DNA of 64,000 nt from positions 2,108,001 to 2,172,000 of the forward strand of contig CAXHJY010000096.1 of assembly GCA_964016885.1 (NCBI GenBank). Direction: 5' to 3'. Under the pieces are notes generated by a model. The model was not told the DNA's origin. It saw only the letters and a program-made list of their open reading frames with translations, and ran no database searches. Source of the stretch: Eledone cirrhosa. Taxonomy: Eukaryota. The first letter of the stretch is position 1. Each line of letters opens with the position of its first letter. Positions 1 through 64,000 of the stretch are shown here, in pieces. The translations under genes and the position numbers were made by a program.

Positions 1-3000
1 TCAGGCGGAGATTGTAAAAAAAATCAGGGGGGAGATAATTTGTAAAAAAATCAGGGGGAGATAATTTGTAAAAAATAATCAGGGGGAGATAATTTGTAAA
101 AAAATTCAAGGGGAGATAATTTCCAGCCGTCCAAGGGGAGATAATTTCCCGCCAGCCAAGGGAAGATAATATTTAAAAAAATTAGGCGGAGATAATTTGT
201 AAAAAAAATCAGGGGGAGATAATTTGTAAAAAAATCAGGGGGAGATAATTTGTAAAAAAAATCAGGGGGAGATAATTTGTAAAAAAAATCATGGGGAGAT
301 AATTTGTAAAAAAAAATCAGGGGTAGATAATTTGTAAAAAAAAATCAGGGGGAGATAATTTGTAAAAAAAAATCAGGGGGAGATAATTTGTAAAAAAAAT
401 CAAGGGGAGATAATATCCAGCCGTCCAAGGAGAGATAATTTAAAAAAAAAATGAGGCGGAGATAATTTGTAAAAAAAAAATCAGGGGGAGTTAATTTGTA
501 AAAAAAAATGAGGGGGAGATAATTTGTAAAAAAAATCAAGGGGAGATAATTTCCAGCCGTCCAAGGGGAGATAATTTTCAGCCGTCCAAGGAGAGGTAAT
601 TTCTAGCCGTCCAAGGGGAGATAATTTCCAGCCGTCCAAGGGGAGGTAATTTCCAGCCGTCCAAGGGGAGATAATTTAAAAAAAAAAATCAGGCGGAGAT
701 AATTTGTAAAAAAAATCAAGGGGAGATAATTTGCAGCCGTCCAAGGGGAGATAATTTTCAGTCGTCCAAGGAGAGGTAATTTCTAGCCGTCCAAGGGGAG
801 ATAATTTCCAGCCGTCCAAGGGGAGATAATTTCCAGCCGTCCAAGGGGAGATAATTTTTTTTAAAAAATCAGGCGGAGATAATTTGTAAAAAAAATCAGG
901 GGGAGATAATTTGTAAACAAAATCAGGGGGAGATAATTTGTAAAAAAAAATCAGGGGGAGATAATTTGTAAAAAAAATTAGGCGTAGATAATTTGTAAAA
1001 AAAAATCAGGGGGAGATAATTTGTAAAAAAAAATCAGGGGGAGATAATTTGTTTAAAAAATCAAGGGGAGATAATTTGCAGCCGTCCAAGGGGAGATAAT
1101 TTTCAGCCGTCCAAGGAGAGGTAATTTCTAGCCGTTCAAGGGGAGATAATTTCCAGCCGTCCAAGGGGAGATAATTTTTTTTAAAAAATCAGGCGGAGAT
1201 AATTTGTAAAAAAAAATCAGGGGGAGATAATTCGTAAAAAAAAATCAGGGGGAGATAATTTGTAAAAAAAAATCAGGGGGAGATAATTTGTAAAAAAAAT
1301 CAAGGGGAGATAATTTCCAGCCGTCCAAGGGGAGGTAATATCTAGCCGTCCAAGGGGAGATAATTTCCAGCCGTCCAAGGGGAGATAATTTCCAGCCGTC
1401 CAAGGGGAGATAATTTCCAGCTGTCCAAGGAGACATATTTTCCAGCCGTCCAAGGCGAGGTAATTTCTAGCCGTCCAAGGAGAGATTAATTCCAGCCTCC
1501 AAGGGGAGATAATTTCCAGCCAGCCAAGGGGAGATAATTTGTAAAAAAATCAGGGGGAGATAATTTGTAAAAAATATCAGGGAGATAATTTGTAAAAAAA
1601 AATCAGGGGGAGATAATTTGTAAAAAAAATCAGGGGGAGATAATTTGTAAAAAAAAATCAGGGGGAGATAATTTGTAAAAAAAATCAAGGGGAGATAATT
1701 TCCAGCCGTCCAAGGGGAGATAATTTTCAGCCGTCCAAGGAGAGGTAATTTCTAACCGTCCGAGGAGAGATAATTTCCAGCCGTCCAAGGGGAGATAATT
1801 TCCAGCCGTCCAAGGGGAGATAATTTCCAGCCGTCCAAGGAGACATATTTTCCAGCCGTCCAAGGAGAGGTAATTTCTAGCCGTCCAAGGGGAGATAAAT
1901 TCCAGCCTCCAAGGGGAGATAATTTCCAGCCAGCCAAGGGGAGATAATTTGTAAAAAAATCAGGGGGAGATAATTTGCAAAAAAAATCAGGGGGAGATAA
2001 TTTGTAAAAAAAATCAGGGGGAGATAATTTGTAAAAAATAATCAGGGGGAGATAATTTCCAGCCGTCCAAGGGAAGATAATTTCCAGCCCTCCAAGGGGC
2101 TATAATTTCCAGTGTCCAAGGGGAGATAATTTCCAGCCAGCGAAGGGGAGATAATTTTTTTTTAAAAATCATTGGGAGATTTGTAAAAAAAATCAGGGGG
2201 AGATAATTTGTAAAAAAAATCAAGGGGAGATAATTTCCAGCCGTCCAAGGGGAGGTAATATCTAGCCGTCCAAGGGTAGATAATTTCCAGCCGTCCAACG
2301 GGAGATAATTTCCAGCCGTCCAAGGGTAGATAATATCCAGCCGCCCAAGGACATATTTTCCAGCCGTCCAAGGAGAGGTAATTTCTAGCCGTCCAAGGGG
2401 AGATAATTTCCAGCCGTCCAAGGGTAGATAATATCCAGCCGTCCAAGGACATATTTTCCAGCCGTCCAAGGAGAGGTAATTTCTAGCCGTCCAAGGGGAG
2501 ATAAATTCCAGCCTCCAAGGGGAGATAATTTCCAGCCAGCCAAGGGGAGATAATTTGTAAAAAAATCAGGGGGAGATAATTTGTAAAAAAAATCAGGGGG
2601 AGATAATTTGTAAAAAAAAATCAGGGGGAGATAATTTGTAAAAAAAAATCAGGGTGAGATAATTTGCAAAAAAAATCAGGGGGAGATAATTTGTAAAAAA
2701 AATCAGGGGTAGATAATTTGTAAAAAAAAATCAGGGGGAGATAATTTGTAAAAAAAAATCAGGGGGAGATAATTTGTAAAAAAAATCAAGGGGAGATAAT
2801 TTCCAGCCGTCCAAGGAGAGATAATTTTAAAAAAAATCAGGCGGAGATAATTTGTAAAAAAAAATCAGGGGGAGATAATTTGTAAAAAAAATCAGGGGGA
2901 GATAATTTGTAAAAAAAAATCAGGGGTAGATAATTTGTAAAAAAAAATCAGGGGGAGATAATTTGTAAAAAAAAATCAGGAGGAGATAATTTGTAAAAAA

Positions 3001-6000
3001 AATCAAGGGGAGATAATTTCCAGCCGTCCAAGGAGAGATAATTTAAAAAAAAATCAGGCGGAGATAATTTGTAAAAAAAAATCAGGGGGAGATAATTTGT
3101 AAAAAAATCAGGGGGAGATAATTTGTAAAAAAAAAAATCAGCGGGAGATAATTTGTAAAAAAAATCAGGGGGAGATAATTTGTAAAAAAAATCAGGGGTA
3201 GATAATTTGTAAAAAAAAATCAGGGGGAGATAATTTGTAAAAAAAAATCAGGGGGAGATAATTTGTAAAAAAAATGAAAGGGGAGATAATATCCAGCCGT
3301 CCAAGGGGAGATAATTTCCAGCCGTCCAAGGGGAGATAATTTCCAGCCGTCCAAGGGGAGATAATTTCCATCCTTCCAAGGGGATATAATTTCCAGCCGT
3401 CCAAGGGGAGATAATTTCCATCCTTCCAAGGGGATATAATTTCCAGCCGTCCAAGGGGAGATAATTTTCAGCCGTCCAAGGAGAGGTAATTTCTAGCCGT
3501 CCAAGGAGAGATAATTTCCAGCCGTCCAAGGGGAGATAATTTCCAGCCGTCCAAGGGGAGATAATTTCCAGCCGTCCAAGGAGACATATTTTCCAGCCGT
3601 CCAAGGAGAGGTAATTCCTAGCCGTCCAAGGGGAGATAAATTCCAGCCTCCAAGGGGAGATAATTTCCAGCCAGCCAAGGGGAGATAATTTGTAAAAAAA
3701 ATCAGGGGGAGATAATTTGTAAAAAAAATCAGGGGGAGATAATTTGTAAAAAAAAATCAGGGGTAGATAATTTGTAAAAAATAATCAGGGGGACATAATT
3801 TGTAAAAAAAATCAAGGGGAGATAATTTCCAGCCGTCCAAGGGGAGATAATTTTCAGCCGTCCAAGGGGAGATAATTTCCCGCCAGCCAAGGGAAGATAA
3901 TATTTAAAAAAATTAGGCGGAGATAATTTGTAAAAAAAATCAGGGGGAGATAATTTGTAAAAAAATCAGGGGGAGATAATTTGTAAAAAAAATCAGGGGG
4001 AGATAATTTGTAAAAAAATCAGTGGGAGATAATTTGTAAAAAAAAATCAGGGGGAGATAATTTGTAAAAAAAATCAAGGGGAGATAATTTCCAGCCGTCC
4101 AAGGGAAGATAATTTCCAGCCCTCCAAGGGGCTATAATTTCCAGCGTCCAAGGGGAGATAATTTCCAGCCAGCGAAGGGGAGATAATTTTTTTTAAAAAA
4201 TCATTGGGAGATTTGTAAAAAAAATCAGGGGGAGATAATTTGTAAAAAAAATCAAGGGGAGATAATTTCCAGCCGTCCAAGGGGAGGTAATATCTAGCCG
4301 TCCAAGGGGAGATAATTTCCAGCCGTCCAAGGGGAGATAATTTCCAGCCGTCCAAGGGTAGATAATATCCAGCCGTCCAAGGACATATTTTCCAGCCGTC
4401 CAAGGAGAGGTAATTTCTAGCCGTCCAAGGGGAGATAAATTCCAGCCTCCAAGGTGAGATAATTTCCAGCCAGCCAAGGGGAGATAATTTGTAAAAAAAT
4501 CAGGGGGAGATAATTTGTAAAAAAAATCAGGGGGAGATAATTTGTAAAAAAAAATCAGGGGGAGATAATTTGTAAAAAAAAATCAGGGGGAGATAATTTG
4601 TAAAAAAAAATCAGGGGGAGATAATTTGTAAAAAAATCAAGGGGAGATAATTTCCAGCCGTCCAAGGGGAGATAATTTTCAGCCGTCCAAGGGGAGATAA
4701 TTTCCCGCCAGCCAAGGGAAGATAATATTTGAAAAAATCAGGCGGAGATAATTTGTAAAAAAAATCAGGGGGAGATAATTTGTAAAAAAATCAGGGGGAG
4801 ATAATTTGTAAAAAAAAAATCAGGGGGAGATAATTTGTAAAAAGAATCAGGGGGAGATAATTTGTAAAAAAAAATCAGGGGTAGATAAATTGTAAAAAAA
4901 AATCAGGGGGAGATAATTTGTAAAAAAAATCAGGGGGAGATAATTTGTAAAAAAAATGAAAGGGGAGATAATATCCAGCCGTCCAAGGGGAGATAATTTC
5001 CAGCCGTCCAAGGGGAGATAATTTCCAGCCGTCCAAGGGGAGATAATTTCCATCCTTCCAAGGGGATATAATTTCCAGCCGTCCAAGGGGAGATAATTTC
5101 CCGCCAGCCAAGGGAAGATAATTTTTAAAATAATCAGGCGGAGATTGTAAAAAAAATCAGGGGGGAGATAATTTGTAAAAAAATCAGGGGGAGATAATTT
5201 GTAAAAAAAAATCAGGGGGAGATAATTTGTAAAAAATAATCAGGGGGAGATAATTTGTAAAAAAAAATCAAGGGGAGATAATTTCCAGCCGTCCAAGGGG
5301 AGATAATTTCCCGCCAGCCAAGGGAAGATAATATTTAAAAAAATTAGGCGGAGATAATTTGTAAAAAAAATCAGGGGGAGATAATTTGTAAAAAAATCAG
5401 GGGGAGATAATTTGTAAAAAAAATCAGGGGGAGATAATTTGTAAAAAAATTCATGGGGAGATAATTTGTAAAAAAAAATCAGGGGTAGATAATTTGTAAA
5501 AAAAAATCAGGGGGAGATAATTTGTAAAAAAAAATCAGGGGGAGATAATTTGTAAAAAAAATCAAGGGGAGATAATTTCCAGCCGTCCAAGGGGAGATAA
5601 TTTTCAGCCGTCCAAGGAGAGGTAATTTCTAGCCGTCCAAGGGGAGATAATTTCCAGCCGTCCAAGGGGAGGTAATTTCCAGCCGTCCAAGGGGAGATAA
5701 TTTAAAAAAAAAAATCAGGCGGAGATAATTTGTAAAAAAAATCAAGGGGAGATAATTTGCAGCCGTCCAAGGGGAGATAATTTTCAGTCGTCCAAGGAGA
5801 GGTAATTTCTAGCCGTCCAAGGGGAGATAATTGCCAGCCGTCCAAGGGGAGATAATTTCCAGCCGTCCAAGGGGAGATAATTTTTTTTTAAAAATCAGGC
5901 GGAGATAATTTGTAAAAAAAATCAGGGGGAGATAATTTGTAAACAAAATCAGGGGGAGATAATTTGTAAAAAAAAATCAGGGGGAGATAATTTGTAAAAA

Positions 6001-9000
6001 AAATCATGGAGAGATAATTTCCAGCCGTCCAAGGTGAGATAATTTCCAGCCGTCCAAGGAGACATATTTTCCAGCCGTCCAAGGCGAGGTAATTTCTAGC
6101 CGTCCAAGGGGAGATAAATTCCAGCCTCCAAGGGGAGATAATTTCCAGCCAGCCAAGTGGAGATAATTTGTAAAAAAATCAGGGGGAGATAATTTGTAAA
6201 AAATATCAGGGAGATAATTTGTAAAAAAAAATCAGGGGGAGATAATTTGTAAAAAAAATCAGGGGGAGATAATTTGTAAAAAAAAATCAGGGGGAGATAA
6301 TTTGTAAAAAAAATCAAGGGGAGATAATTTCCAGCCGTCCAAGGGGAGATAATTTTCAGCCGTCCAAGGGGAGATAATTTCCCGCCAGCCAAGGGAAGAT
6401 AATATTTAAAAAAATCAGGCGGAGATAATTTGTAAAAAAAATCAGGGGGAGATAATTTGTAAAAAAATCAGGGGGAGATAATTTGTAAAAAAAAAATCAG
6501 GGGGAGATAATTTGTAAAAAAAATCAGGGGGAGATAATTTGTAAAAAAAAATCAGGGGTAGATAATTTGTAAACAAATATCAGGGGGAGATAATTTGTAA
6601 AAAAAAATCAGGGGGAGATAATTTGTAAAAAAAATGAAAGTGGAGATAATATCCAGCCGTCCAAGGGGAGATAATTTCCAGCCGTCCAAGGGGATATAAT
6701 TTCCAGCCGTCCAAGGGGAGATAATTTCCATCCTTCCAAGGGGATATAATTTCCAGCCGTCCAAGGGGAGATAATTTCCCGCCAGCCAAGGGAAGATAAT
6801 TTTTAAAAAAATCAGGCGGAGATTGTAAAAAAAATCAGGGGGGAGATAATTTGTAAAAAAATCAGGGGGAGATAATTTGTAAAAAATAATCAGGGGGAGA
6901 TAATTTGTAAAAAAATTCAAGGGGAGATAATTTCCAGCCGTCCAAGGGGAGATAATTTCCCGCCAGCCAAGGGAAGATAATATTTAAAAAAATTAGGCGG
7001 AGATAATTTGTAAAAAAATCAGGGGGAGATAATTTGTAAAAAAAATCAGGGGGAGATAATTTGTAAAAAAAATCATGGGGAGATAATTTGTAAAAAAAAA
7101 TCAGGGGTAGATAATTTGTAAAAAAAAATCAGGGGGAGATAATTTGTAAAAAAAAATCAGGGGGAGATAATTTGTAAAAAAAAATCAAGGGGAGATAATA
7201 TCCAGCCGTCCAAGGAGAGATAATTTTAAAAAAAAATGAGGCGGAGATAATTTGTAAAAAAAAAATCAGGGGGAGTTAATTTGTAAAAAAAAATGAGGGG
7301 GAGATAATTTGTAAAAAAAATCAAGGGGAGATAATTTCCAGCCGTCCAAGGGGAGATAATTTTCAGCCGTCCAAGGAGAGGTAATTTCTAGCCGTCCAAG
7401 GGGAGATAATTTCCAGCCGTCCAAGGGGAGGTAATTTCCAGCCGTCCAAGGGGAGATAATTTTAAAAAAAAAATCAGGCGGAGATAATTTGTAAAAAAAA
7501 TCAAGGGGAGATAATTTGCAGCCGTCCAAGGGGAGATAATTTTCAGTCGTCCAAGGAGAGGTAATTTCTAGCCGTCCAAGGGGAGATAATTTCCAGCCGT
7601 CCAAGGGGAGATAATTTCCAGCCGTCCAAGGGGAGATAATTTTTTTAAAAAAATCAGGCGGAGATAATTTGTAAAAAAAATCAGGGGGAGATAATTTGTA
7701 AACAAAATCAGGGGGAGATAATTTGTAAAAAAAAATCAGGGGGAGATAATTTGTAAAAAAAATTAGGCGTAGATAATTTGTAAAAAAAAATCAGGGGGAG
7801 ATAATTTGTAAAAAAAAATCAGGGGGAGATAATTTGTTTAAAAAATCAAGGGGAGATAATTTGCAGCCGTCCAAGGGGAGATAATTTTCAGCCGTCCAAG
7901 GAGAGGTAATTTCTAGCCGTTCAAGGGGAGATAATTTCCAGCCGTCCAAGGGGAGATAATTTCCAGCCGTCCAAGGGGAGATAATTTTTTTTAAAAAATC
8001 AGGCGGAGATAATTTGTAAAAAAAAATCAGGGGGAGATAATTCGTAAAAAAAAATCAGGGGGAGATAATTTGTAAAAAAAAATCAGGGGGAGATAATTTG
8101 TAAAAAAAATCAAGGGGAGATAATTTCCAGCCGTCCAAGGGGAGGTAATATCTAGCCGTCCAAGGGGAGATAATTTCCAGCCGTCCAAGGGGAGATAATT
8201 TCCAGCCGTCCAAGGGGAGATAATTTCCAGCCGTCCAAGGAGACATATTTTCCAGCCGTCCAAGGCGAGGTAATTTCTAGCCGTCCAAGGGGAGATTAAT
8301 TCCAGCCACCAAGGGGAGATAATTTCCAGCCAGCCAAGGGGAGATAATTTGTAAAAAAATCAGGGGGAGATAATTTGTAAAAAATATCAGGGAGATAATT
8401 TGTAAAAAAAAATCAGGGGGAGATAATTTGTAAAAAAAATCAGGGGGAGATAATTTGTAAAAAAAAATCAGGGGGAGATAATTTGTAAAAAAAATCAAGG
8501 GGAGATAATTTCCAGCCGTCCAAGGGGAGATAATTTTCAGCCGTCCAAGGAGAGGTAATTTCTAACCGTCCGAGGAGAGATAATTTCCAGCCCTCCAAGG
8601 GGCTATAATTTCCAGTGTCCAAGGGGAGATAATTTCCAGCCAGAGAAGGGGAGATAATTTTTTTTAAAAAATCATTGGGAGATTTGTAAAAAAAATCAGG
8701 GGGAGATAATTTGTAAAAAAAATCAAGGGGAGATAATTTCCAGCCGTCCAAGGGGAGGTAATATCTAGCCGTCCAAGGGGAGATAATTTCCAGCCGTCCA
8801 AGGGGAGATAATTTCCAGCCGTCCAAGGGTAGATAATATCCAGCCGCCCAAGGACATATTTTCCAGCCGTCCAAGGAGAGGTAATTTCTAGCCGTCCAAG
8901 GGGAGATAAATTCCAGCCTCCAAGGGGAGATAATTTCCAGCCAGCCAAGGGGAGATAATTTGTAAAAAAATCAGGGGGAGATAATTTGTAAAAAAAATCA

Positions 9001-12000
9001 GGGGGATATAATTTGTAAAAAAAAATCAGGGGGAGATAATTTGTAAAAAAAAATCAGGGGGAGATAATTTGCAAAAAAAATCAGGGGGAGATAATTTGTA
9101 AAAAAAAATCAGGGGTAGATAATTTGTAAAAAAAAATCAGGGGGAGATAATTTGTAAAAAAAAATCAGGGGGAGATAATTTGTAAAAGAAATCAAGGGGA
9201 GATAATTTCCAGCCGTCCAAGGAGAGATAATTTTAAAAAAAATCAGGCGGAGATAATTTGTAAAAAAAAATCAGGGGGAGATAATTTGTAAAAAAAATCA
9301 GGGGGAGATAATTTGTAAAAAAAAATCAGGGGTAGATAATTTGTAAAAAAAAATCAGGGGGAGATAATTTGTAAAAAAAATCAGGGGGAGATAATTTGTG
9401 AAAAAAATCAAGGGGAGATAATTTCCAGCCGTCCAAGGAGAGATAATTTTAAAAAAAATCAGGCGGAGATAATTTGTAAAAAAAAATTAGGGGGAGATAA
9501 TTTGTAAAAAAAAATCAGGGGGAGATAATTTGTAAAAAAAATCAAGGGGAGATAATTTCCAGCCGTCCAAGGGGAGATAATTTTCAGCCGTCCAAGGGGA
9601 GATAATTTCCCGCCAGCCAAGGGAAGATAATATTCAAAAAAATCAGGCGGAGATAATTTGTAAAAAAAATCAGGGGGAGATAATTTGTAAAAAAATCAGG
9701 GGGAGATAATTTGTAAAAAAAAATCAGGGGTAGATAATTTGTAAAAAAAAATCAGGGGGAGATAATTTGTAAAAAAAAATCAGGAGGAGATAATTTGTAA
9801 AAAAAATCAAGGGGAGATAATTTCCAGCCGTCCAAGGAGAGATAATTTAAAAAAAAATCAGGCGGAGATAATTTGTAAAAAAAAATCAGGGGGAGATAAT
9901 TTGTAAAAAAATCAGGGGGAGATAATTTGTAAAAAAAAAAATCAGGGGGAGATAATTTGTAAAAAAAATCAGGGGGAGATAATTTGTAAAAAAAATCAGG
10001 GGTAGATAATTTGTAAAAAAAAATCAGGGGGAGATAATTTGTAAAAAAAAATCAGGGGGAGATAATTTGTAAAAAAAATGAAAGGGGAGATAATATCCAG
10101 CCGTCCAAGGGGAGATAATTTCCAGCCGTCCAAGGGGAGATAATTTCCAGCCGTCCAAGGGGAGATAATTTCCATCCTTCCAAGGGGATATAATTTCCAG
10201 CCGTCCAAGGGGAGATAATTTCCATCCTTCCAAGGGGATATAATTTCCAGCCGTCCAAGGGGAGATAATTTTCAGCCGTCCAAGGAGAGGTAATTTCTAG
10301 CCGTCCAAGGAGAGATAATTTCCAGCCGTCCAAGGGGAGATAATTTCCAGCCGTCCAAGGGGAGATAATTTCCAGCCGTCCAAGGAGACATATTTTCCAG
10401 CCGTCCAAGGAGAGGTAATTCCTAGCCGTCCAAGGGGAGATAAATTCCAGCCTCCAAGGGGAGATAATTTCCAGCCAGCCAAGGGGAGATAATTTGTAAA
10501 AAAAATCAGGGGGAGATAATTTGTAAAAAAAATCAGGGGGAGATAATTTGTAAAAAAAAATCAGGGGTAGATAATTTGTAAAAAATAATCAGGGGGAGAT
10601 AATTTGTAAAAAAAATCAAGGGGAGATAATTTCCAGCCGTCCAAGGGGAGATAATTTTCAGCCGTCCAAGGGGAGATAATTTCCCGCCAGCCAAGGGAAG
10701 ATAATATTTAAAAAAATTAGGCGGAGATAATTTGTAAAAAAAATCAGGGGGAGATAATTTGTAAAAAAATCAGGGGGAGATAATTTGTAAAAAAAATCAG
10801 GGGGAGATAATTTGTAAAAAAATCAGGGGGAGATAATTTGTAAAAAAAAATCAGGGGGAGATAATTTGTAAAAAAAATCAAGGGGAGATAATTTCCAGCC
10901 GTCCAAGGGAAGATAATTTCCAGCCCTCCAAGGGGCTATAATTTCCAGCGTCCAAGGGGAGATAATTTCCAGCCAGCGAAGGGGAGATAATTTTTTTTAA
11001 AAAATCATTGGGAGATTTGTAAAAAAAATCAGGGGGAGATAATTTGTAAAAAAAATCAAGGGGAGATAATTTCCAGCCGTCCAAGGGGAGGTAATATCTA
11101 GCCGTCCAAGGGGAGATAATTTCCAGCCGTCCAAGGGGAGATAATTTCCAGCCGTCCAAGGGTAGATAATATCCAGCCGTCCAAGGACATATTTTCCAGC
11201 CGTCCAAGGAGAGGTAATTTCTAGCCGTCCAAGGGGAGATAAATTCCAGCCTCCAAGGTGAGATAATTTCCAGCCAGCCAAGGGGAGATAATTTGTAAAA
11301 AAATCAGGGGGAGATAATTTGTAAAAAAAATCAGGGGGAGATAATTTGTAAAAAAAAATCAGGGGGAGATAATTTGTAAAAAAAAATCAGGGGGAGATAA
11401 TTTGTAAAAAAAAATCAGGGGGAGATAATTTGTAAAAAAATCAAGGGGAGATAATTTCCAGCCGTCCAAGGGGAGATAATTTTCAGCCGTCCAAGGGGAG
11501 ATAATTTCCCGCCAGCCAAGGGAAGATAATATTTGAAAAAATCAGGCGGAGATAATTTGTAAAAAAAATCAGGGGGAGATAATTTGTAAAAAAATCAGGG
11601 GGAGATAATTTGTAAAAAAAAAATCAGGGGGAGATAATTTGTAAAAAGAATCAGGGGGAGATAATTTGTAAAAAAAAATCAGGGGTAGATAAATTGTAAA
11701 AAAAAATCAGGGGGAGATAATTTGTAAAAAAAATCAGGGGGAGATAATTTGTAAAAAAAATGAAAGGGGAGATAATATCCAGCCGTCCAAGGGGAGATAA
11801 TTTCCAGCCGTCCAAGGGGAGATAATTTCCAGCCGTCCAAGGGGAGATAATTTCCATCCTTCCAAGGGGATATAATTTCCAGCCGTCCAAGGGGAGATAA
11901 TTTCCCGCCAGCCAAGGGAAGATAATTTTTAAAATAATCAGGCGGAGATTGTAAAAAAAATCAGGGGGGAGATAATTTGTAAAAAAATCAGGGGGAGATA

Positions 12001-25249: not shown

Positions 25250-25675
25250 CAAGGGGAGATAATTTCCAGCCGTCCAAGGGGAGATAATTTTCAGCCGTCC
25301 AAGGAGAGGTAATTTCTAGCCGTCCGAGGAGAGATAATTTCCAGCCGTCCAAGGGGAGATAATTTCCATCCTTCCAAGGGGATATAATTTCCAGCCGTCC
25401 AAGGGGAGATAATTTCCATCCTTCCAAGGGGATATAATTTCCAGCCGTCCAAGGGGAGATAATTTTCAGCCGTCCAAGGAGAGGTAATTTCTAGCCGTCC
25501 AAGGAGAGATAATTTCCAGCCGTCCAAGGGGAGATAATTTCCAGCCGTCCAAGGGGAGATAATTTCCAGCCGTCCAAGGAGACATATTTTCCAGCCGTCC
25601 AAGGAGAGGTAATTCCTAGCCGTCCAAGGGGAGATAAATTCCAGCCTCCAAGGGGAGATAATTTCCAGCCAGCCA
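25250..25675 (+). repeat. Example long run of type-B monomers (~17 x 25 bp)
   Basis: Consecutive CAAGGGGAGATAATTTCCAGCCGTC units with ordered variants (TTTTCAG, GGAGAGGTAATTTCTAG, CCATCCTTCC, GGGGATATAA, GGAGACATATTTT). Confidence 0.95.
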
Positions 25676-46000: not shown

Positions 46001-47699
46001 ATCAGGGGGAGATAATTTGTAAAAAAAATCAGGGGGAGATAATTTGTAAAAAAAAATCAGAGGGAGATAATTTGTAAAAAATAATCAGGGGGAGATAATT
46101 TGTAAAAAAAATCAAGGGGAGATAATTTCCAGCCGTCCAAGGGGAGATAATTTTCAGCCGTCCAAGGGGAGATAATTTTCAGCCGTCCAAGGAGAGGTAA
46201 TTTCTAGCCGTCCAAGGAGAGATAATTTCCAGCCGTCCAAGGGGAGAGAATTTCCAGCCGTCCAAGGGGAGATAATTTCCAGCCGTCCAAGGAGACATAT
46301 TTTCCAGCCGTCCAAGGAGAGGTAATTCCTAGCCGTCCAAGGGGAGATAAATTCCAGCCTCCAAGGGGAGATAATTTCCAGCCAGCCAAGGGGAGATCAT
46401 TTGTAAAAAAAATCAGGGGGAGATAATTTGTAAAAAAAATCAGGGGGAGATAATTTGTAAAAAAAAATCAGAGGGAGATAATTTGTAAAAAATAATCAGG
46501 GGGAGATAATTTGTAAAAAAAATCAAGGGGAGATAATTTCCAGCCGTCCAAGGGGAGATAATTTTCAGCCGTCCAAGGGGAGATAATTTCCCGCCAGCCA
46601 AGGGAAGATAATATTTAAAAAAATTAGGCGGAGATAATTTGTAAAAAAAATCAGGGGGAGATAATTTGTAAAAAAATCAGGGGGAGATAATTTGTAAAAA
46701 AAATCAGGGGGAGATAATTTGTAAAAAAAAATCAGGGGTAGATAATTTGTAAAAAAAAATCAGGGGGAGATAATTTGTAAAAAAAATCAGGGGGAGATAA
46801 TTTGTAAAAAAAATCAGGGGGAGATAATTTGTAAAAAAAAATCAGGGGTAGATAATTTGTAAAAAAAAATCAGGGGGAGATAATTTGTAAAAAAAATCAA
46901 GGGGAGATAATTTCCAGCCATCCAAGGGAAGATAATTTCCAGCCCTCCAAGGGGCTATAATTTCCAGCGTCCAAGGGGAGATAATTTCCAGCCAGCGAAG
47001 GGGAGATAATTTTTTTTTCAAAATCATTGGGAGATTTGTAAAAAAAATCAGGGGGAGATAATTTGTAAAAAAAATCAAGGGGAGATAATTTCCAGCCGTC
47101 CAAGGGGAGGTAATATCTAGCCGTCCAAGGGGAGATAATTTCCAGCCGTCCAAGGGTAGATAATATCCAGCCGTCCAAGGACATATTTTCCAGCCGTCCA
47201 AGGAGAGGTAATTTCTAGCCGTCCAAGGGGAGATAAATTCCAGCCTCCAAGGGGAGATAATTTCCAGCCAGCCAAGGGGAGATAATTTGTAAAATAATCA
47301 GGGGGAGATAATTTGTAAAAAAAATCAGGGGGAGATAATTTGTAAAAAAAAATCAGGGGGAGATAATTTGTAAAAAAAAATCAGGGGGAGATAATTTGTA
47401 AAAAAAATCAGGGGGAGATAATTTGTAAAAAAAATCAAGGGGAGATCATTTCCAGCCGTCCAAGGGAGATAATTTTCAGCCGTCCAAGGGGAGATAATTT
47501 CCCGCCAGCCAAGGGAAGATAATATTTAAAAAAATCAGGCGGAGATAATTTGTAAAAAAAATCAGGGGGAGATAATTTGTAAAAAAATCAGGGGGAGATA
47601 ATTTGTAAAAGAAAAATCAGGGGGAGATAATTTGTAAAAAAAATCAGGGGGAGATAATTTGTAAAAAAAAATCAGGGGTAGATAATTTGTAAAAAAAAA

Positions 47700-53600: not shown

Positions 53601-56600
53601 AAAAATCAGGCGGAGATAATTTGTAAAAAAAATCAAGGGGAGATAATTTGCAGCCGTCCAAGGGGAGATAATTTTCAGTCGTCCAAGGAGAGGTAATTTC
53701 TAGCCGTCCAAGGGGAGATAATTGCCAGCCGTCCAAGGGGAGATAATTTCCAGCCGTCCAAGGGGAGATAATTTTTTTTAAAAAATCAGGCGAAGATAAT
53801 TTGTAAAAAAAATCAGGGGGAGATAATTTGTAAACAAAATCAGGGGGAGATAATTTGTAAAAAAAAATCAGGGGTAGATAATTTGTAAAAAAAAATCAGG
53901 GGTAGATGAATTGTAAAAAAAAATCAGGGGGAGATAATTTGTAAAAAAAATCAGGGGGAGATAATTTGTAAAAAAAATGAAAGGGGAGATAATATCCAGC
54001 CGTCCAAGGGGAGATAATTTCCAGCCGTCCAAGGGGAGATAATTTCCAGCCGTCCAAGGGGAGATAATTTCCATCCTTCCAAGGGGATATAATTTCCAGC
54101 CGTCCAAGGGGAGATAATTTCCCGTCAGCCAAGGGAAGATAATATTTAAAAAAATTAGGCGGAGATAATTTGTAAAAAAAATCAGGGGGAGATAATTTGT
54201 AAAAAATCAGGGGGAGATAATTTGTAAAAAAAATCAGGGGGAGATAATTTGTAAAAAAAATCATGGGGAGATAATTTGTAAAAAAAAATCAGGGGTAGAT
54301 AATTTGTAAAAAAAAATAAGGGGGAGATAATTTGTAAAAAAAAATCAGGGGGAGATAATTTGTAAAAAAAATCAAGGGGAGATAATTTCCAGCCGTCCAA
54401 GGGGAGATAATTTTCAGCCGTCCAAGGAGAGGTAATTTCTAGCCGTCCAAGGGGAGATAATTTCCAGCCGTCCAAGGGGAGGTAATTTCCAGCCGTCCAA
54501 GGGGAGATAATTTAAAAAAAAAAATCAGGCGGAGATAATTTGTAAAAAAAATCAAGGGGAGATAATTTGCAGCCGTCCAAGGGGAGATAATTTTCAGTCG
54601 TCCAAGGAGAGGTAATTTCTAGCCGTCCAAGGGGAGATAATTGCCAGCCGTCCAAGGGGAGATAATTTCCAGCCGTCCAAGGGGAGATAATTTTTTTTAA
54701 AAAATCAGGCGGAGATAATTTGTAAAAAAAATCAGGGGGAGATAATTTGTAAACAAAATCAGGGGGAGATAATTTGTAAAAAAAAATCAGGGGTAGATAA
54801 TTTGTAAAAAAAAATCAGGGGGAGATAATTTGTAAAAAAAAATCAGGGGGAGATAATTTGTAAAAAAAATCAAGGGGAGATAATTTCCAGCCGTCCAAGG
54901 GGAGATAATTTTCTGCCGTCCAAGGAGAGGTAATTTCTAGCCGTCCAAGGGGAGATAATTTCCAGCCGTCCAAGGGGAGGTAATTTCCAGCCGTCCAAGG
55001 GGAGATAATTTTTAAAAAAAAATCAGGCGGAGATAATTTGTAAAAAAAATCAAGGGGAGATAATTTGCAGCCGTCCAAGGGGAGATAATTTTCAGTCGTC
55101 CAAGGAGAGGTAATTTCTAGCCGTCCAAGGGGAGATAATTGCCAGCCGTCCAAGGGGAGATAATTTCCAGCCGTCCAAGGGGAGATAATTTTTTTTAAAA
55201 AATCAGGCGGAGATAATTTGTAAAAAAAATCAGGGGGAGATAATTTGTAAACAAAATCAGGGGGAGATAATTTGTAAAAAAAAATCAGGGGGAGATAATT
55301 TGTAAAAAAAATCATGGAGAGATAATTTCCAGCCGTCCAAGGGGAGATAATTTCCAGCCTTCCAAGGAGACATATTTTCCAGCCGTCCAAGGCGAGGTAA
55401 TTTCTAGCCGTCCAAGGGGAGATAAATTCCAGCCTCCAAGGGGAGATAATTTCCAGCCAGCCAAGTGGAGATAATTTGTAAAAAAATCAGGGGGAGATAA
55501 TTTGTAAAAAATATCAGGGAGATAATTTGTAAAAAAAAATCAGGGGGAGATAATTTGTAAAAAAAATCAGGGGGAGATAATTTGTAAAAAAAAATCAGGG
55601 GGAGATAATTTGTAAAAAAAATCAAGGGGAGATAATTTCCAGCCGTCCAAGGGGAGATAATTTTCAGCCGTCCAAGGGGAGATAATTTCCCGCCAGCCAA
55701 GGGAAGATAATATTTAAAAAAATCAGGCGGAGATAATTTGTAAAAAAAATCAGGGGGAGATAATTTGTAAAAAAATCAGGGGGAGATAATTTGTAAAAAA
55801 AAAATCAGGGGGAGATAATTTGTAAAAAAAATCAGGGGGAGATAATTTGTAAAAAAAAATCAGGGGTAGATAATTTGTAAACAAAAATCAGGGGGAGATA
55901 ATTTGTAAAAAAAAATCAGGGGGAGATAATTTGTAAAAAAAATGAAAGGGGAGATAATATCCAGCCGTCCAAGGGGAGATAATTTCCAGCCGTCCAAGGA
56001 GACATATTTTCCAGCCGTCCAAGGAGAGGTAATTCCTAGCCGTCCAAGGGGAGATAAATTCCAGCCTCCAAGGGGAGATAATTTGTAAAAAAAATCAGGG
56101 GGAGATAATTTGTAAAAAAAATCAGGGGGAGATAATTTGTAAAAAAAATCAGGGGGAGATAATTTGTAAAAAAAAATCAGGGGTAGATAATTTGTAAAAA
56201 ATAATCAGGGGGAGATAATTTGTAAAAAAAATCAAGGGGAGATAATTTCCAGCCGTCCAAGGGGAGATAATTTTCAGCCGTCCAAGGGGAGATAATTTCC
56301 CGCCAGCCAAGGGAAGATAATATTTAAAAAAATTAGGCGGAGATAATTTGTAAAAAAAATCAGGGGTAGATAATTTGTAAAAAAATCAGGGGGAGATAAT
56401 TTGTAAAAAAAATCAGGGGGAGATAATTTGTAAAAAAAATCAGGGGGAGATAATTTGTAAAAAAAAATCAGGGGGAGATAATTTGTAAAAAAATTCAAGG
56501 GGAGATAATTTCCAGCCGTCCAAGGGAAGATAATTTCCAGCCCTCCAAGGGGCTATAATTTCCAGCGTCCAAGGGGAGATAATTTCCAGCCAGCGAAGGG

Positions 56601-59600
56601 GAGATAATTTTTTTTAAAAAATCATTGGGAGATTTGTAAAAAAAATCAGGGGGAGATAATTTGTAAAAAAAATCAAGGGGAGATAATTTCCAGCCGTCCA
56701 AGGGGAGGTAATATCTAGCCGTCCAAGGGGAGATAATTTCCAGCCGTCCAAGGGGAGATAATTTCCAGCCGTCCAAGGGTAGATAATATCCAGCCGTCCA
56801 AGGACATATTTTCCAGCCGTCCAAGGAGAGGTAATTTCTAGCCGTCCAAGGGGAGATAAATTCCAGCCTCCAAGGTGAGATAATTTCCAGCCAGCCAAGG
56901 GGAGATAATTTGTAAAAAAATCAGGGGGAGATAATTTGTAAAAAAAATCAGGGGGAGATAATTTGTAAAAAAAAATCAGGGGGAGATAATTTGTAAAAAA
57001 AAATCAGGGGGAGATAATTTGTAAAAAAAAATCAGGGGGAGATAATTTGTAAAAAAATCAAGGGGAGATAATTTCCAGCCGTCCAAGGGGAGATAATTTT
57101 CAGCCGTCCAAGGGGAGATAATTTCCCGCCAGCCAAGGGAAGATAATATTTGAAAAAATCAGGCGGAGATAATTTGTAAAAAAAATCAGGGGGAGATAAT
57201 TTGTAAAAAAATCAGGGGGAGATAATTTGTAAAAAAAAAATCATGGGGAGATAATTTGTAAAAAAAATCAGGGGGAGATAATTTGTAAAAAAAAATCAGG
57301 GGTAGATAAATTGTAAAAAAAAATCAGGGGGAGATAATTTGTAAAAAAAATCAGGGGGAGATAATTTGTAAAAAAAATGAAAGGGGAGATAATATCCAGC
57401 CGTCCAAGGGGAGATAATTTCCAGCCGTCCAAGGGGAGATAATTTCCAGCCGTCCAAGGGGAGATAATTTCCATCCTTCCAAGGGGATATAATTTCCAGC
57501 CGTCCAAGGGGAGATAATTTCCCGCCAGCCAAGGGAAGATAATTTTTAAAAAAATCAGGCGGAGATTGTAAAAAAAATCAGGGGGGAGATAATTTGTAAA
57601 AAAATCAGGGGGAGATAATTTGTAAAAAAAAATCAGGGGGAGATAATTTGTAAAAAATAATCAGGGGGAGATAATTTGTAAAAAAAAATCAAGGGGAGAT
57701 AATTTCCAGCCGTCCAAGGGGAGGTAATATCTAGCCGTCCAAGGGGAGATAATTTCCAGCCGTCCAACGGGAGATAATTTCCAGCCGTCCATGGGTAGAT
57801 AATATCCAGCCGCCCAAGGACATATTTTCCAGCCGTCCAAGGAGAGGTAATTTCTAGCCGTCCAAGGGGAGATAATTACAGCCGTCCAAGGGTAGATAAT
57901 ATCCAGCCGTCCAAGGACATATTTTCCAGCCGTCCAAGGAGAGGTAATTTCTAGCCGTCCAAGGGGAGATAAATTCCAGCCTCCAAGGGGAGATAATTTC
58001 CAGCCAGCCAAGGGGAGATAATTTGTAAAAAAATCAGGGGGAGATAATTTGTAAAAAAAATCAGGGGGAGATAATTTGTAAAAAAAAATCAGGGGGAGAT
58101 AATTTGTAAAAAAAAATCAGGGGGAGATAATTTGCAAAAAAAATCAGGGGGAGATAATTTGTAAAAAAAAATCAGGGGTAGATAATTTGTAAAAAAAAAT
58201 CAGGGGGAGATAATTTGTAAAAAAAAATCAGGGGGAGATAATTTGTAAAAAAAATCAAGGGGAGATAATTTCCAGCCGTCCAAGGGAAGATAATTTCCAG
58301 CCCTCCAAGGGGCTATAATTTCCAGCGTCCAAGGGGAGATAATTTCCAGCCAGCGAAGGGGAGATAATTTTTTTTAAAAAATCATTGGGAGATTTGTAAA
58401 AAAAATCAGGGGGAGATAATTTGTAAAAAAAATCAAGGGGAGATAATTTCCAGCCGTCCAAGGGGAGGTAATATCTAGCCGTCCAAGGGGAGATAATTTC
58501 CAGCCGTCCAACGGGAGATAATTTCCAGCCGTCCATGGGTAGATAATATCCAGCCGCCCAAGGACATATTTTCCAGCCGTCCAAGGAGAGGTAATTTCTA
58601 GCCGTCCAAGGGGAGATAATTTCCAGCCGTCCAAGGGTAGATAATATCCAGCCGTCCAAGGACATATTTTCCAGCCGTCCAAGGAGAGGTAATTTCTAGC
58701 CGTCCAAGGGGAGATAAATTCCAGCCTCCAAGGGGAGATAATTTCCAGCCAGCCAAGGGGAGATAATTTGTAAAAAAATCAGGGGGAGATAATTTGTAAA
58801 AAAAATCAGGGGGAGATAATTTGTAAAAAAAAATCAGGGGGAGATAATTTGTAAAAAAAAATCAGGGGGAGATAATTTGCAAAAAAAATCAGGGGGAGAT
58901 AATTTGTATAAAAAAATCAGGGGTAGATAATTTGTAAAAAAAAACAGGGGGAGATAATTTGTAAAAAAAAATCAGGGGGAGATAATTTGTAAAAAAAATC
59001 AAGGGGAGATAATTTCCAGCCGTCCAAGGAGAGATAATTTAAAAAAAAAATCAGGCGGAGATAATTTGTAAAAAAAAATCAGGGGGAGATAATTTGTAAA
59101 AAAAATCAGGGGGAGATAATTTGTAAAAAAAAATCAGGGGTAGATAATTTGTAAAAAAAAATCAGGGGGAGATAATTTGTAAAAAAAATCAAGGGGAGAT
59201 AATTTCCAGCCGTCCAAGGAGAGATAATTTAAAAAAAAATCAGGGGGAGATAATTTGTAAAAAAAATCAAGGGGAGATAATTTCCAGCCGTCCAAGGGGA
59301 GATAATTTTCAGCCGTCCAAGGGGAGATAATTTCCCGCCAGCCAAGGGAAGATAATATTCAAAAAAATCAGGCGGAGATAATTTGTAAAAAAAATCAGGG
59401 GGAGATAATTTGTAAAAAAATCAGGGGGAGATAATTTGTAAAAAAAAAAATCAGGGGGAGATAATTTGTAAAAAAAATCAGGGGGAGATAATTTGTAAAA
59501 AAAAATCAGGGGTAGATAATTTGTAAAAAAAAATCAGGGGGAGATAATTTGTAAAAAAAAATCAGGGGGAGATAATTTGTAAAAAAAATGAAAGGGGAGA

Positions 59601-62600
59601 TAATATCCAGCCGTCCAAGGGGAGATAATTTCCAGCCGTCCAAGGGGAGATAATTTCCAGCCGTCCAAGGGGAGATAATTTCCATCCTTCCAAGGGGATA
59701 TAATTTCCAGCCGTCCAAGGGGAGATAATTTCCATCCTTCCAAGGGGATATAATTTCCAGCCGTCCAAGGGGAGATAATTTTCAGCCGTCCAAGGAGAGG
59801 TAATTTCTAGCCGTCCAAGGAGAGATAATTTCCAGCCGTCCAAGGGGAGATAATTTCCAGCCGTCCAAGGGGAGATAATTTCCAGCCGTCCAAGGAGACA
59901 TATTTTCCAGCCGTCCAAGGAGAGGTAATTCCTAGCCGTCCAAGGGGAGATAAATTCCAGCCTCCAAGGGGAGATAATTTCCAGCCAGCCAAGGGGAGAT
60001 AATTTGTAAAAAAAATCAGGGGGAGATAATTTGTAAAAAAAATCAGGGGGAGATAATTTGTAAAGAAATCAGGGGGAGATAATTTGTAAAAAAAAATCAG
60101 GGGGAGATAATTTGTAAAAAAAATCAGGGGGAGATAATTTGTAAAAAAAAATCAGGGGGAGATAATTTGTAAAAAAAATCAAGGGGAGATAATTTCCAGC
60201 CGTCCAAGGGAAGATAATTTCCAGCCCTCCAAGGGGCTATAATTTCCAGCGTCCAAGGGGAGATAATTTCCAGCCAGCGAAGGGGAGATAATTTTTTTAA
60301 AAAAATCATTGGGAGATTTGTAAAAAAATCAGGGGGAGATAATTTGTAAAAAAAATCAAGGGGAGATAATTACCAGCCGTCCAAGGGGAGGTAATATCTA
60401 GCCGTCCAAGGGGTGATAATTTCCAGCCGTCCAAGGGGAGATAATTTCCAGCCGTCCAAGGGTAGATAATATCCAGCCGTCCAAGGACATATTTTCCAGC
60501 CGTCCAAGGAGAGGTAATTTCTAGCCGTCCAAGGGGAGATAAATTCCAGCCTCCAAGGTGAGATAATTTCCAGCCAGCCAAGGGGAGATAATTTGTAAAA
60601 AAAAATCAGGGGGAGATAATTTGTAAAAAAAATCAAGGGGAGATAATTTCCAGCCGTCCAAGGGGAGATAATTTTCAGCCGTCCAAGGGGAGATAATTTC
60701 CCGCCAGCCAAGGGAAGATAATATTTAAAAAAATCAGGCGGAGATAATTTGTAAAAAAAATCAGGGGGAGATAATTTGTAAAAAAATCAGGGGGAGATAA
60801 TTTGTAAAAAAAAAATCAGGGGGAGATAATTTGTAAAAAAAATCAGGGGGAGATAATTTGTAAAAAAAAATCAGGGGTAGATGAATTGTAAAAAAAAATC
60901 AGGGGGAGATAATTTGTAAAAAAAATCAGGGGGAGATAATTTGTAAAAAAAATGAAAGGGGAGATAATATCCAGCCGTCCAAGGGGAGATAATTTCCAGC
61001 CGTCCAAGGGGAGATAATTTCCAGCCGTCCAAGGGGAGATAATTTCCATCCTTCCAAGGGGATATAATTTCCAGCCGTCCAAGGGGAGATAATTTCCCGC
61101 CAGCCAAGATAAGATAATATTTAAAAAAATTAGGCGGAGATAATTTGTAAAAAAAATCAGGGGGAGATAATTTGTAAAAAATCAGGGGGAGATAATTTGT
61201 AAAAAAAATCAGGGGGAGATAATTTGTAAAAAAAATCATGGGGAGATAATTTGTAAAAAAAAATCAGGGGTAGATAATTTGTAAAAAAAAATCAGGGGGA
61301 GATAATTTGTAAAAAAAAATCAGGGGGAGATAATTTGTAAAAAAAATCAAGGGGAGATAATTTCCAGCCGTCCAAGGGGAGATAATTTTCAGCCGTCCAA
61401 GGAGAGGTAATTTCTAGCCGTCCAAGGGGAGATAATTTCCAGCCGTCCAAGGGGAGGTAATTTCCAGCCGTCCAAGGGGAGATAATTTTAAAAAAAAAAT
61501 CAGGCGGAGATAATTTGTAAAAAAAATCAAGGGGAGATAATTTGCAGCCGTCCAAGGGGAGATAATTTTCAGTCGTCCAAGGAGAGGTAATTTCTAGCCG
61601 TCCAAGGGGAGATAATTGCCAGCCGTCCAAGGGGAGATAATTTCCAGCCGTCCAAGGGGAGATAATTTTTTTTAAAAAATCAGGCGGAGATAATTTGTAA
61701 AAAAAATCAGGGGGAGATAATTTGTAAACAAAATCAGGGGGAGATAATTTGTAAAAAAAAATCAGGGGTAGATAATTTGTAAAAAAAAATCAGGGGGAGA
61801 TAATTTGTAAAAAAAAATCAGGGGGAGATAATTTGTAAAAAAAATCAAGGGGAGATAATTTCCAGCCGTCCAAGGGGAGATAATTTTCAGCCGTCCAAGG
61901 AGAGGTAATTTCTAGCCGTCCAAGGGGAGATAATTTCCAGCCGTCCAAGAGGAGGTAATTTCCAGCCGTCCAAGGGGAGATAATTTTAAAAAAAAATCAG
62001 GCGGAGATAATTTGTAAAAAAAATCAAGGGGAGATAATTTGCAGCCGTCCAAGGGGAGATAATTTTCAGTCGTCCAAGGAGAGGTAATTTCTAGCCGTCC
62101 AAGGGGAGATAATTGCCAGCCGTCCAAGGGGAGATAATTTCCAGCCGTCCAAGGGGAGATAATTTTTTTTAAAAAATCAGGCGGTGATAATTTGTAAAAA
62201 AAATCAGGGGGAGATAATTTGTAAACAAAATCAGGGGGAGATAATTTGTAAAAAAAAATCAGGGGGAGATAATTTGTAAAAAAAATCATGGAGAGATAAT
62301 TTCCAGCCGTCCAAGGGGAGATAATTTCCAGCCTTCCAAGGAGACATATTTTCCAGCCGTCCAAGGCGAGGTAATTTCTAGCCGTCCAAGGGGAGATAAA
62401 TTCCAGCCTCCAAGGGGAGATAATTTCCAGCCAGCCAAGTGGAGATAATTTGTAAAAAAATCAGGGGGAGATAATTTGTAAAAAATATCAGGGAGATAAT
62501 TTGTAAAAAAAAATCAGGGGGAGATAATTTGTAAAAAAAATCAGGGGGAGATAATTTGTAAAAAAAAATCAGGGGGAGATAATTTGTAAAAAAAATCAAG

Positions 62601-62970
62601 GGGAGATAATTTCCAGCCGTCCAAGGGGAGATAATTTTCAGCCGTCCAAGGGGAGATAATTTCCCGCCAGCCAAGGGAAGATAATATTTAAAAAAATCAG
62701 GCGGAGATAATTTGTAAAAAAAATCAGGGGGAGATAATTTGTAAAAAAATCAGGGGGAGATAATTTGTAAAAAAAAAATCAGGGGGAGATAATTTGTAAA
62801 AAAAATCAGGGGGAGATAATTTGTAAAAAAAAATCAGGGGTAGATAATTTGTAAACAAAAATCAGGGGGAGATAATTTGTAAAAAAAAATCAGGGGGAGA
62901 TAATTTGTAAAAAAAATGAAAGGGGAGATAATATCCAGCCGTCCAAGGGGAGATAATTTCCAGCCGTCCA
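47700..62970 (+). repeat. HOR domain III, 7,895/7,894-bp period falling to 6,974 bp
   Basis: ORF offsets: 48379/56274, 48600/56495, 49766/57661 and 50360/58255 = 7895; 51612/59506 through 53398/61292 = 7894; 55404/62378 = 6974. Private markers are CCATGGGTAG (49894, 50638, 57789, 58533), GTAGATGAATT and GATAATTAC. Confidence 0.92.
52960..54800 (+). repeat. 919-bp tandem duplication present only in the first domain-III copy
   Basis: ORFs 52949/53868 and 52977/53896 are offset by 919. The marker GTAGATGAATT lies at ~52983 and ~53902, and AATTGCCAGCC at ~53720 and ~54639. Confidence 0.88.
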
Positions 62971-64000
62971 AGGGGATATAATTTCCAGCCGTCCAAGGGG
63001 AGATAATTTCCATCCTTCCAAGGGGATATAATTTCCAGCCGTCCAAGGGGAGATAATTTCCCGCCAGCCAAGGGAAGATAATTTTTAAAAAAATCAGGCG
63101 GAGATTGTAAAAAAAATCAGGGGGGAGATAATTTGTAAAAAAATCAGGGGGAGATAATTTGTAAAAAATAATCAGGGGGAGATAATTTGTAAAAAAATTC
63201 AAGGGGAGATAATTTCCAGCCGTCCAAGGGGAGATAATTTCCCGCCAGCCAAGGGAAGATAATATTTAAAAAAATCAGGCGGAGATTGTAAAAAAAATCA
63301 GGGGGGAGATAATTTGTAAAAAAATCAGGGGGAGATAATTTGTAAAAAAAATCAGGGGGAGATAATTTGTAAAAAAATCAGGGGGAGATAATTTGTAAAA
63401 AAAATCAGGGGGAGATAATTTGTAAAAAAAATCATGGGGAGATAATTTGTAAAAAGAAATCAGGGGTAGATAATTTGTAAAAAAAAATCAGGGGGAGATA
63501 ATTTGTAAAAAAAAATCAGGGGGAGATAATTTGTAAAAAAAATCAAGGGGAGATAATATCCAGCCGTCCAAGGAGAGATAATTTCAAAAAAAAATGAGGC
63601 GGAGATAATTTGTAAAAAAAAAATCAGGGGGAGTTAATTTGTAAAAAAAAATGAGGGGGAGATAATTTGTAAAAAAAATCAAGGGGAGATAATTTCCAGC
63701 CGTCCAAGGGGAGATAATTTTCAGCCGTCCAAGGAGAGGTAATTTCTAGCCGTCCAAGGGGAGATAATTTCCAGCCGTCCAAGGGGAGGTAATTTCCAGC
63801 CGTCCAAGGGGAGATAATTTAAAAAAAAAAATCAGGCGGAGATAATTTGTAAAAAAAATCAGGGGGAGATAATTTGTAAACAAAATCAGGGGGAGATAAT
63901 TTGTAAAAAAACATCAGGGGGAGATAATTTGTAAAAAAAATTAGGCGTAGATAATTTGTAAAAAAAAATCAGGGGGAGATAATTTGTAAAAAAAAATCAG
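62378..64000 (+). repeat. Return to domain-I-type sequence (homologous to ~6100-7800 / ~12900-14500)
   Basis: ORFs 62378, 62834 and 62862 match 12900, 13356 and 13384 with the same internal spacing (456 bp between the first two). Markers GGGGGAGTTAATT, TGAGGGGG and TTAGGCGTAG follow in domain-I order. Confidence 0.85.

What the first reader, a model, noticed from the sequence alone, without database searches (positions are those of the whole stretch)
1..64000. Two-letter composite satellite: a constant 13-bp core with two interchangeable tails (A-tract or GC-rich)
Seen: a near-invariant core GGGGAGATAATTT recurs every 25-28 bp for 64 kb, while the sequence between cores switches between two unrelated tails (GT-A7-10-TCAG or CCAGCCGTCCAA) in runs. 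Most described satellites have one monomer family with diverged variants. Here two discrete states keep almost the same core spacing despite unrelated tails. Inference: the core and its ~26-bp spacing may be constrained (a protein-binding lattice), or the core may simply be the homology through which the two types recombine. I do not recognise this family, but I cannot establish that it is undescribed.
Basis: partly seen in the sequence, partly recalled or inferred. Interest (0 to 1): 0.75.

Follow-up and report, generated by a model that had tools for sequence, protein, structure and literature searches.

The report
Two-letter octopus satellite, inherited mosaic
This window is part of a roughly 17-million-base repeat in a likely octopus genome, built from short runs of two 25-28-base units that share half their sequence; the shared half mutates as fast as the rest, so the pattern likely comes from one old swap of the unit's tail followed by copying, not from a protected protein-binding site.

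Summary
The array is real: 2,455 units (1,256 A, 1,199 B) in short runs. It fills the 2.9-Mb contig at all sampled places and totals about 17 Mb on four giant chromosomes, one small chromosome and two small contigs of an octopod-type genome. After copies are collapsed, core and tail take equal numbers of mutations (ratio 0.90-1.09), and only 61% of units keep the exact core. The tails are not freely interchangeable: junction units carry inherited marks shared across chromosomes. An older layer on chromosome C1 has B-like units, no A units, and a third tail of about 300 bp behind the same core, so 26-bp spacing is not obligatory. Best reading: B is ancestral, A arose once by tail replacement (possibly from a neighbouring A-tract satellite), and the mosaic spread by duplication, with occasional crossovers in the core. 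No paper holding six of its motifs was found; Dfam, Repbase and nt could not be searched. Similar box-joined satellites are known from nematodes. This scan reached a similar reading on another piece of this genome (e1-10323831). A centromere role is untested.

The parts
1..64000 (+). A/B mosaic satellite array, part of a 2.92-Mb contig (G000:C123) that is this satellite from about base 1,300 to its end at every place sampled
513..539 (+). Example A unit, last of its run (core 513-525, GT, A-tract, ends TCAA as at nearly all A-to-B junctions)
540..564 (+). Example consensus B unit, 25 bp (core 540-552, GC-rich tail)
135..159 (+). Example last-of-run B unit that keeps the old-layer G at site 21
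160..185 (+). Example first-of-run A unit: altered core, no GT, T-run straight into the A-tract; likely closest to the first A unit

Best explanation
The array is a young, multi-megabase satellite made of two unit types that share a core, and it likely arose when the tail of one unit in an older 25-bp GC-tailed repeat was replaced once by an A-tract and the mixed block was then copied, probably without selection on the core. Shown: equal mutation load in core and tail; an older, A-free layer of B-like units; junction marks shared by arrays on different chromosomes; exact duplications of 6-10 kb. Inferred steps: (1) the old unit b (tail with GGCC) gave B by one substitution. (2) One A unit formed inside a b/B run; the run edges keep its likely first form (core, T-run, A-tract, TCAA). 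Its tail most likely came from the neighbouring satellite D, (TT[T]A5-9TCCA)n, by a template switch between 4-bp matches on either side (about 45% of this branch), or else arose in place. (3) That unit was duplicated with two substitutions, giving the CAG/GT inner A unit. (4) In-register slippage changed run lengths, kilobase duplications built the arrays, and segmental duplications moved them between chromosomes. (5) Occasional out-of-register crossovers inside the core made new junctions. It probably behaves as heterochromatin.
For: Core/tail event ratio 0.90-1.09; base-adjusted observed/expected 1.08-1.35, so the core is not slower. The third tail C diverges by 0.075-0.091 per site, like the old core at 0.089. 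Old layer at G000:C1 about 251.77-252.207 Mb, interleaved with A/B patches: b units and C spacers, no A units inside its blocks, and 0 of 3,171 units with the young GTCC tail. The old-type G survives in 519 of 962 last-before-A B units against 133 of 4,831 inner ones. The commonest A-to-B junction (568 of 1,063) occurs in all 8 sample groups. A unit's sequence variant predicts the next type 97.7% of the time in-sample, against 83% from type alone. 69% of 300-mers have an exact copy in the window, mostly 6-10 kb away. The motif ATT(T)A6-10TC[C/A]A occurs in 13 of 91 non-array loci that are all D arrays, once in one other, and in none of the remaining 77. D or decayed D lies beside A/B arrays on C2, C3 and C4. 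The spread of A fraction between 11 sample groups (sd 0.032) is close to that among 270-unit blocks of this window (0.026).
Against: No intermediate was found. A genome-wide search for core plus an intact D unit gave 16 hits, all with the GT start; the 4 contexts read look like point mutants. A search for b joined directly to A gave 6 sites: one layer junction and five apparent reversions, and no b/A layer. The clean D-to-A/B contact on C2 is a scaffold gap, and the gap-free contact on C4 has decayed D in the opposite orientation. The D match is low-complexity, about 15 bases. The old layer is called older from its higher diversity and position, not from an outgroup. A fraction stays at 0.45-0.55 and no run exceeds 18 units among 2,959 runs, although arrays share only 4-29% of sampled 60-mers; in a toy neutral model this holds only for short turnover. 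The test compares core with tail, so selection on the whole unit would be missed.
Confidence: 0.72

Rival explanations
1. The core is a protein-binding site kept on a 26-bp lattice, and tails are free spacers.
For: The core holds a GATA-type AGATAA motif (motif identity recalled). It is shared by three tail types. The huge young arrays use only 25-28-bp units, while the layer with long C tails stayed small (240 matches to a C motif).
Against: No excess conservation of the core or of its GATAA sites in old or young B units or in A units. Core-disrupting variants are amplified to dozens of copies. C tails of 113-420 bp follow the same core.
Confidence: 0.06
2. The array is centromeric or pericentromeric DNA of the giant chromosomes, and the alternation of A-tract runs (about 144 bp) and GC-rich runs (about 130 bp) is kept because it positions nucleosomes.
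For: Megabase arrays lie at internal sites of C1-C4 (37-60% of length) and at the midpoint of C21, among other satellites and interstitial TTAGGG. An old layer lies at one edge, as in layered centromeres. A fraction is 0.45-0.55 in all 11 groups.
Against: Mapped arrays (about 16.4 Mb by interpolation) use up nearly all of the 15.5-19.6 Mb implied by 385,057 core matches, so most chromosomes cannot carry a large array. C2, C3 and C4 have several separate blocks. Cassette length is broad (275 +/- 107 bp). The ratio is compatible with recent common descent. There are no chromatin data.
Confidence: 0.14
3. The history is as in the best explanation, but the A tail arose in place (slippage or untemplated A addition at a break, or deletion within the AT-rich C spacer) and resembles satellite D by chance. 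The confidence is conditional on that shared history.
For: C follows the same core in cis and holds TAATT plus A-tract and AAAATCAA stretches; shortened C spacers exist. No core-D chimera survives.
Against: The full ATT(T)-A-tract-TC[C/A]A motif occurs in 0 of 16 old-layer loci and densely in D, where 132 units already have the TCAA form. A C origin needs two deletions plus changes.
Confidence: 0.4
4. The mosaic is an assembly artefact that joins reads from two separate satellites through the shared core.
For: Arrays often end at scaffold gaps.
Against: Raw reads of a run from another study under the same species label (X21) cover the whole A-to-B stretch and hold B-to-A junction sequence. Junction units carry their own fixed marks.
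Confidence: 0.01

Closest known systems
Meloidogyne chitwoodi/fallax satellites joined at Box 1 and Box 2 (PMC3694981; abstract and section 13 read)
   Same: Dissimilar monomers share a short box, and transitions between monomer types in higher-order repeats fall at the box.
   Different: There the box is measurably more conserved than the rest and links long monomers of 32-64% identity. Here the core is half of a 25-bp unit, is not more conserved, and most junctions are inherited.
Meloidogyne incognita alpha-CenH3 repeats with a conserved 19-bp box (PMC8097292; abstract only)
   Same: Divergent monomers with one shared short core.
   Different: That box is reported as completely conserved and CenH3-bound by ChIP. 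Here 39% of units lack the exact core and no binding is known.
Tribolium madens intermingled major and minor satellites (PMC13081366; passages read)
   Same: Two related satellites alternate over megabases, with conserved transition zones, in likely (peri)centromeric blocks.
   Different: There the units are long and arranged in macro-dyads. Here units are 25-28 bp in runs of about 5, and the two strand changes seen lie across other sequence or gaps.
Layered primate alpha satellite (PMC2729386; abstract only)
   Same: An older, more diverse layer lies beside a young homogenised expansion that spread between chromosomes.
   Different: Those are proven centromeres with 171-bp units (unit size recalled). 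Here the old layer was seen on one chromosome and function is untested.
Bovine 1.706 patchwork satellite of 23-bp unit types (recalled; the listing showed nothing on it)
   Same: Segments of different short-unit types in one long repeat.
   Different: A fixed long period and no A-tract tail swap, as recalled; not checked.

Membership tests
Satellite DNA (large tandem arrays) | Head-to-tail short units over megabases at few loci | tested here: met
Satellite DNA with higher-order repeats | One fixed multi-monomer period | tested here: not met
   Exact repeats fall at many distances (2.2-10 kb and more); 148 distinct run sequences among 417 runs. It is a variable mosaic.
Box-conserved satellites (Meloidogyne type) | Box more conserved than the rest of the monomer | tested here: not met
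   Core/tail ratio 0.90-1.09
Box-conserved satellites (Meloidogyne type) | Switches between monomer types fall at the box | tested here: inconclusive
   335 of 963 B-to-A and 59 of 1,052 A-to-B junctions fit a switch in the core; the rest carry marks placing the switch at its edges
Centromeric satellite | CENP-A occupancy or location at the primary constriction | not testable with these tools
   No chromatin or cytological data
Centromeric satellite | One major array on every chromosome | tested here: not met
   Seen on C1-C4, C21 and contigs C123 and C1499. Mapped length about equals the genome-wide total. Other chromosomes were not scanned one by one, so small arrays there are not excluded.
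Layered satellite (alpha-satellite type) | Older diverged layer flanking a young array | tested here: met
   On C1 only; not seen in the other edge samples; 7 forward-strand C matches and 106 forward b matches were not located
Transposon-derived satellite | Unit or spacer found as part of a dispersed element | tested here: inconclusive
   In the first 251 Mb of C1 the 16-bp core occurs only once alone and in one 28-unit patch; the C motif has no match there before the array. The rest of the genome was not listed.
A described satellite family | Sequence match in Dfam, Repbase or nt | not testable with these tools
   Only full-text paper search was possible: 0 papers for six motifs

The most novel reading that the evidence does not exclude
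The satellite marks the centromeres of the giant fused chromosomes of this octopod, and its near 1:1 alternation of roughly nucleosome-length A-tract and GC-rich runs is a selected binary code for chromatin, built by capturing one unit of a neighbouring satellite. It would be the first defined cephalopod centromere sequence, with its parents still in the genome.
Probability: 0.1. Interest if true: 0.75.

Novelty: new variant of a known kind. Interest (0 to 1): 0.33.

Why it matters
The sequence appears undescribed, and the paper searches run here turned up no study of cephalopod satellites or centromeres. Its value is as a clear record of how a two-unit satellite can form: the older layer, a candidate tail donor and the junction marks are all in one assembly. 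It is also a caution, since a core shared by unlike tails can reflect ancestry without selection. It gives a FISH and CENP-A target for the four giant chromosomes.

Tried and rejected
Conservation in other species: 14 other coded organisms and a wastewater sample share 8-32% of sampled words. Three were laid (B, C, D) and hold the same derived A/B variants almost unchanged. This fits carry-over as well as relatives; the planned control was not obtained, so it is not used as evidence. No RNA holder was listed. The 28-unit pure-b patch at C1:231.58 Mb was considered as the seed and rejected, because it begins with the end of a C spacer and so looks like an escaped piece. A macro-dyad was rejected: the strand changes on C2 and C3 are separated by other sequence and, on C2, a gap. 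'Giant chromosomes only' was rejected when C21 and C1499 arrays appeared. Searches for core-D chimeras and for a b/A layer found none. A pure-A array was not found in 443 kb of samples (longest A run 17 units), but no genome-wide search for one was possible. The AT-rich 46/91/137-bp neighbour on C1 was considered as tail donor and does not hold the motif. Papers searched by term only, with nothing relevant in the main text: PMC12682272, 10.1101/2025.08.29.672809, PMC12988792, and the centromere atlas 10.64898/2026.09.17.752431 (no 'octop', 'cephalopod' or 'mollus'). The atlas supplements were not seen and could list this repeat. The toy simulation has arbitrary parameters and is only a sanity check.

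Full report
Observation. The window is G000:C123:2,108,001-2,172,000 of a 3.0-Gb genome. It is one array on the + strand: the exact core occurs 1,504 times and never exactly on the other strand. Alignment-based decomposition gives 2,455 units, 1,256 A (mostly 26-28 bp) and 1,199 B (mostly 25 bp). They form 419 runs against 1,228 +/- 25 in shuffles. The core is exact in 856 of 1,254 A and 647 of 1,199 B units. Raw reads from another study of the same species label cover an A-to-B stretch and show B-to-A junction sequence, so this is not an assembly artefact.

Organism. The genome holds mollusc-type haemocyanin genes, listed as runs of seven functional units on C1. One unit scores 650-659 bits against chains 1js8_A and 4yd9_C and 460-507 against others; that those two are octopus and squid, and that seven units mark octopods, is recalled. 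Four contigs are 379-443 Mb and the others measured are 135 Mb or less.

Extent. The 16-bp shared block has 385,057 exact matches against 1 for the control; at 19.6-24.9 per kb this is 15.5-19.6 Mb. Rare-variant searches and sampled stretches place arrays on C123 (2.9 Mb), C1 251.19-252.21, C2 244.33 (small), 245.59-248.3 and 248.5-251.13, C3 162.7-165.66, 165.9-167.9 and 168.8-169.1, C4 140.1 (small) and 205.46-206.43, C21 17.54-17.71, and C1499. By interpolation between samples they sum to about 16.4 Mb. Only searches listed all their hits (28, 16 and 15), so small arrays elsewhere are not excluded. Neighbours are other satellites and interstitial TTAGGG.

Is the core constrained? I collapsed copies into distinct 25-bp variants and counted mutation steps on a nearest-neighbour network. 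Old layer, 3,226 units: 193 core against 178 tail events, ratio per site 1.00 (0.82-1.23). Young B, 6,544 units: 185 against 188, ratio 0.91 (0.74-1.11). Requiring 2, 3 or 5 copies gives 0.90-1.09; adjusting for base class gives 1.08-1.35. A units, with the tract left out, give 10.8 against 8.6 events per site. The GATAA sites are not protected. The test excludes only core protection stronger than about 20-30%, and cannot see selection on the whole unit.

Are tails interchangeable? No. A units end in A before B (981 of 1,052) and in G inside runs (3,644 of 3,825). First A units often lack GT (628 of 963), inner ones rarely (143 of 4,877). The commonest junction variants occur on all or most sampled chromosomes. 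Run edges therefore look like the two halves of one first A unit (core, T-run, A-tract, TCAA), with a slightly changed inner unit multiplied between them. This is inference. A minority of junctions switch inside the core, including two between old and young layers, so the core does serve at times as crossover homology.

Older layer and candidate parents. On C1, about 0.2 Mb interleaved with and flanking the A/B array consists of b units (one base from B) in runs broken by a third tail, C, mostly about 300 bp and AT-rich (240 motif matches). It holds no young-type tails in 3,171 units, and last-before-A B units often keep b's base (519 of 962 against 133 of 4,831). This points to b as ancestral and shows that 26-bp spacing is not obligatory. 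A separate satellite D, (TT[T]A5-9TCCA)n, lies near A/B arrays on C2, C3 and C4. The likely first A tail matches a D unit and is bounded by 4-bp matches to B. The motif was dense in 13 D loci, single in one other and absent from 77 of 91 non-array loci and all 16 old-layer loci. Against this, no intact intermediate was found, the match is low-complexity, and an origin in place stays open.

Growth. 69% of 300-mers have an exact copy within the window, mostly 6-10 kb away, with no single period. The A fraction is 0.45-0.55 in 11 sample groups (443 kb) and runs reach 17-18 units at most. This spread matches that of 270-unit blocks in the window, and a toy neutral model keeps it for short but not long turnover. 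It fits recent common descent and leaves a small opening for balancing selection.

Comparison and novelty. Six motifs gave 0 papers; four subject searches gave listings with nothing on this repeat. Dfam, Repbase and nt were not available, and the supplements of the centromere atlas were not seen. It works like the box-joined Meloidogyne satellites and the intermingled Tribolium satellites but fails the conserved-box test. Earlier notes of this scan on other pieces of this genome reached a similar reading; they are not independent evidence. Other organisms' runs hold near-identical copies, which may be carry-over.

Verdict. It is a real and apparently undescribed satellite with an unusual but explicable architecture. 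The constrained-lattice idea is not supported, and a centromere role is possible and untested. Interest 0.33.

Noticed in passing
G000:C1:231,579,836-231,580,530 (L042:1450-2140): Isolated 28-unit pure-b patch in ordinary sequence, beginning with the end of a C spacer: likely an escaped piece of the old layer.
   Followed up: yes
L241 (C2 248.30 Mb), L139/L140 (C4 205.0-205.46 Mb), L259 (C4 140.04 Mb): The same decayed D-like segment lies beside A/B arrays at three sites, suggesting a segmental duplication that carried the array edge.
   Followed up: partly
L153 (C2 244.335-244.340 Mb): Another two-state satellite of about 19-bp units with a shared A-tract core and either GGGG-ACCC or C-run tails; binary mosaics may be recurrent in this genome.
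   Followed up: no
L005, L028 (C1 251.10-251.19 Mb): AT-rich patchwork satellite with 46/91/137-bp periods, in both orientations, next to the C1 array across a gap.
   Followed up: no
L117-L125 (C4 137-143 Mb), L221-L222 (C2 251.14 Mb): A 7-bp TTGGTGY satellite seen at 8 of 9 samples over 6 Mb; a small A/B array sits inside it.
   Followed up: no
L132, L155, L224 (C2 243.0 and 251.2 Mb), L200 (C1499 start): Interstitial or inward-pointing TTAGGG tracts flank the C2 satellite block, as fusion scars might.
   Followed up: no
L007:1-1340 (start of C123): The array starts abruptly inside a roughly 110-bp satellite that carries a (CT)n tract, with no gap.
   Followed up: no
C1 old layer, C spacer (e.g. 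L078): C holds (TTAAA)n followed by (TTTAA)n, a long imperfect inverted repeat that could form a hairpin.
   Followed up: no
runs X5-X20: Fourteen other coded organisms and a wastewater sample share words of this satellite; three tested hold near-identical variants. Carry-over or relatives, unresolved.
   Followed up: partly
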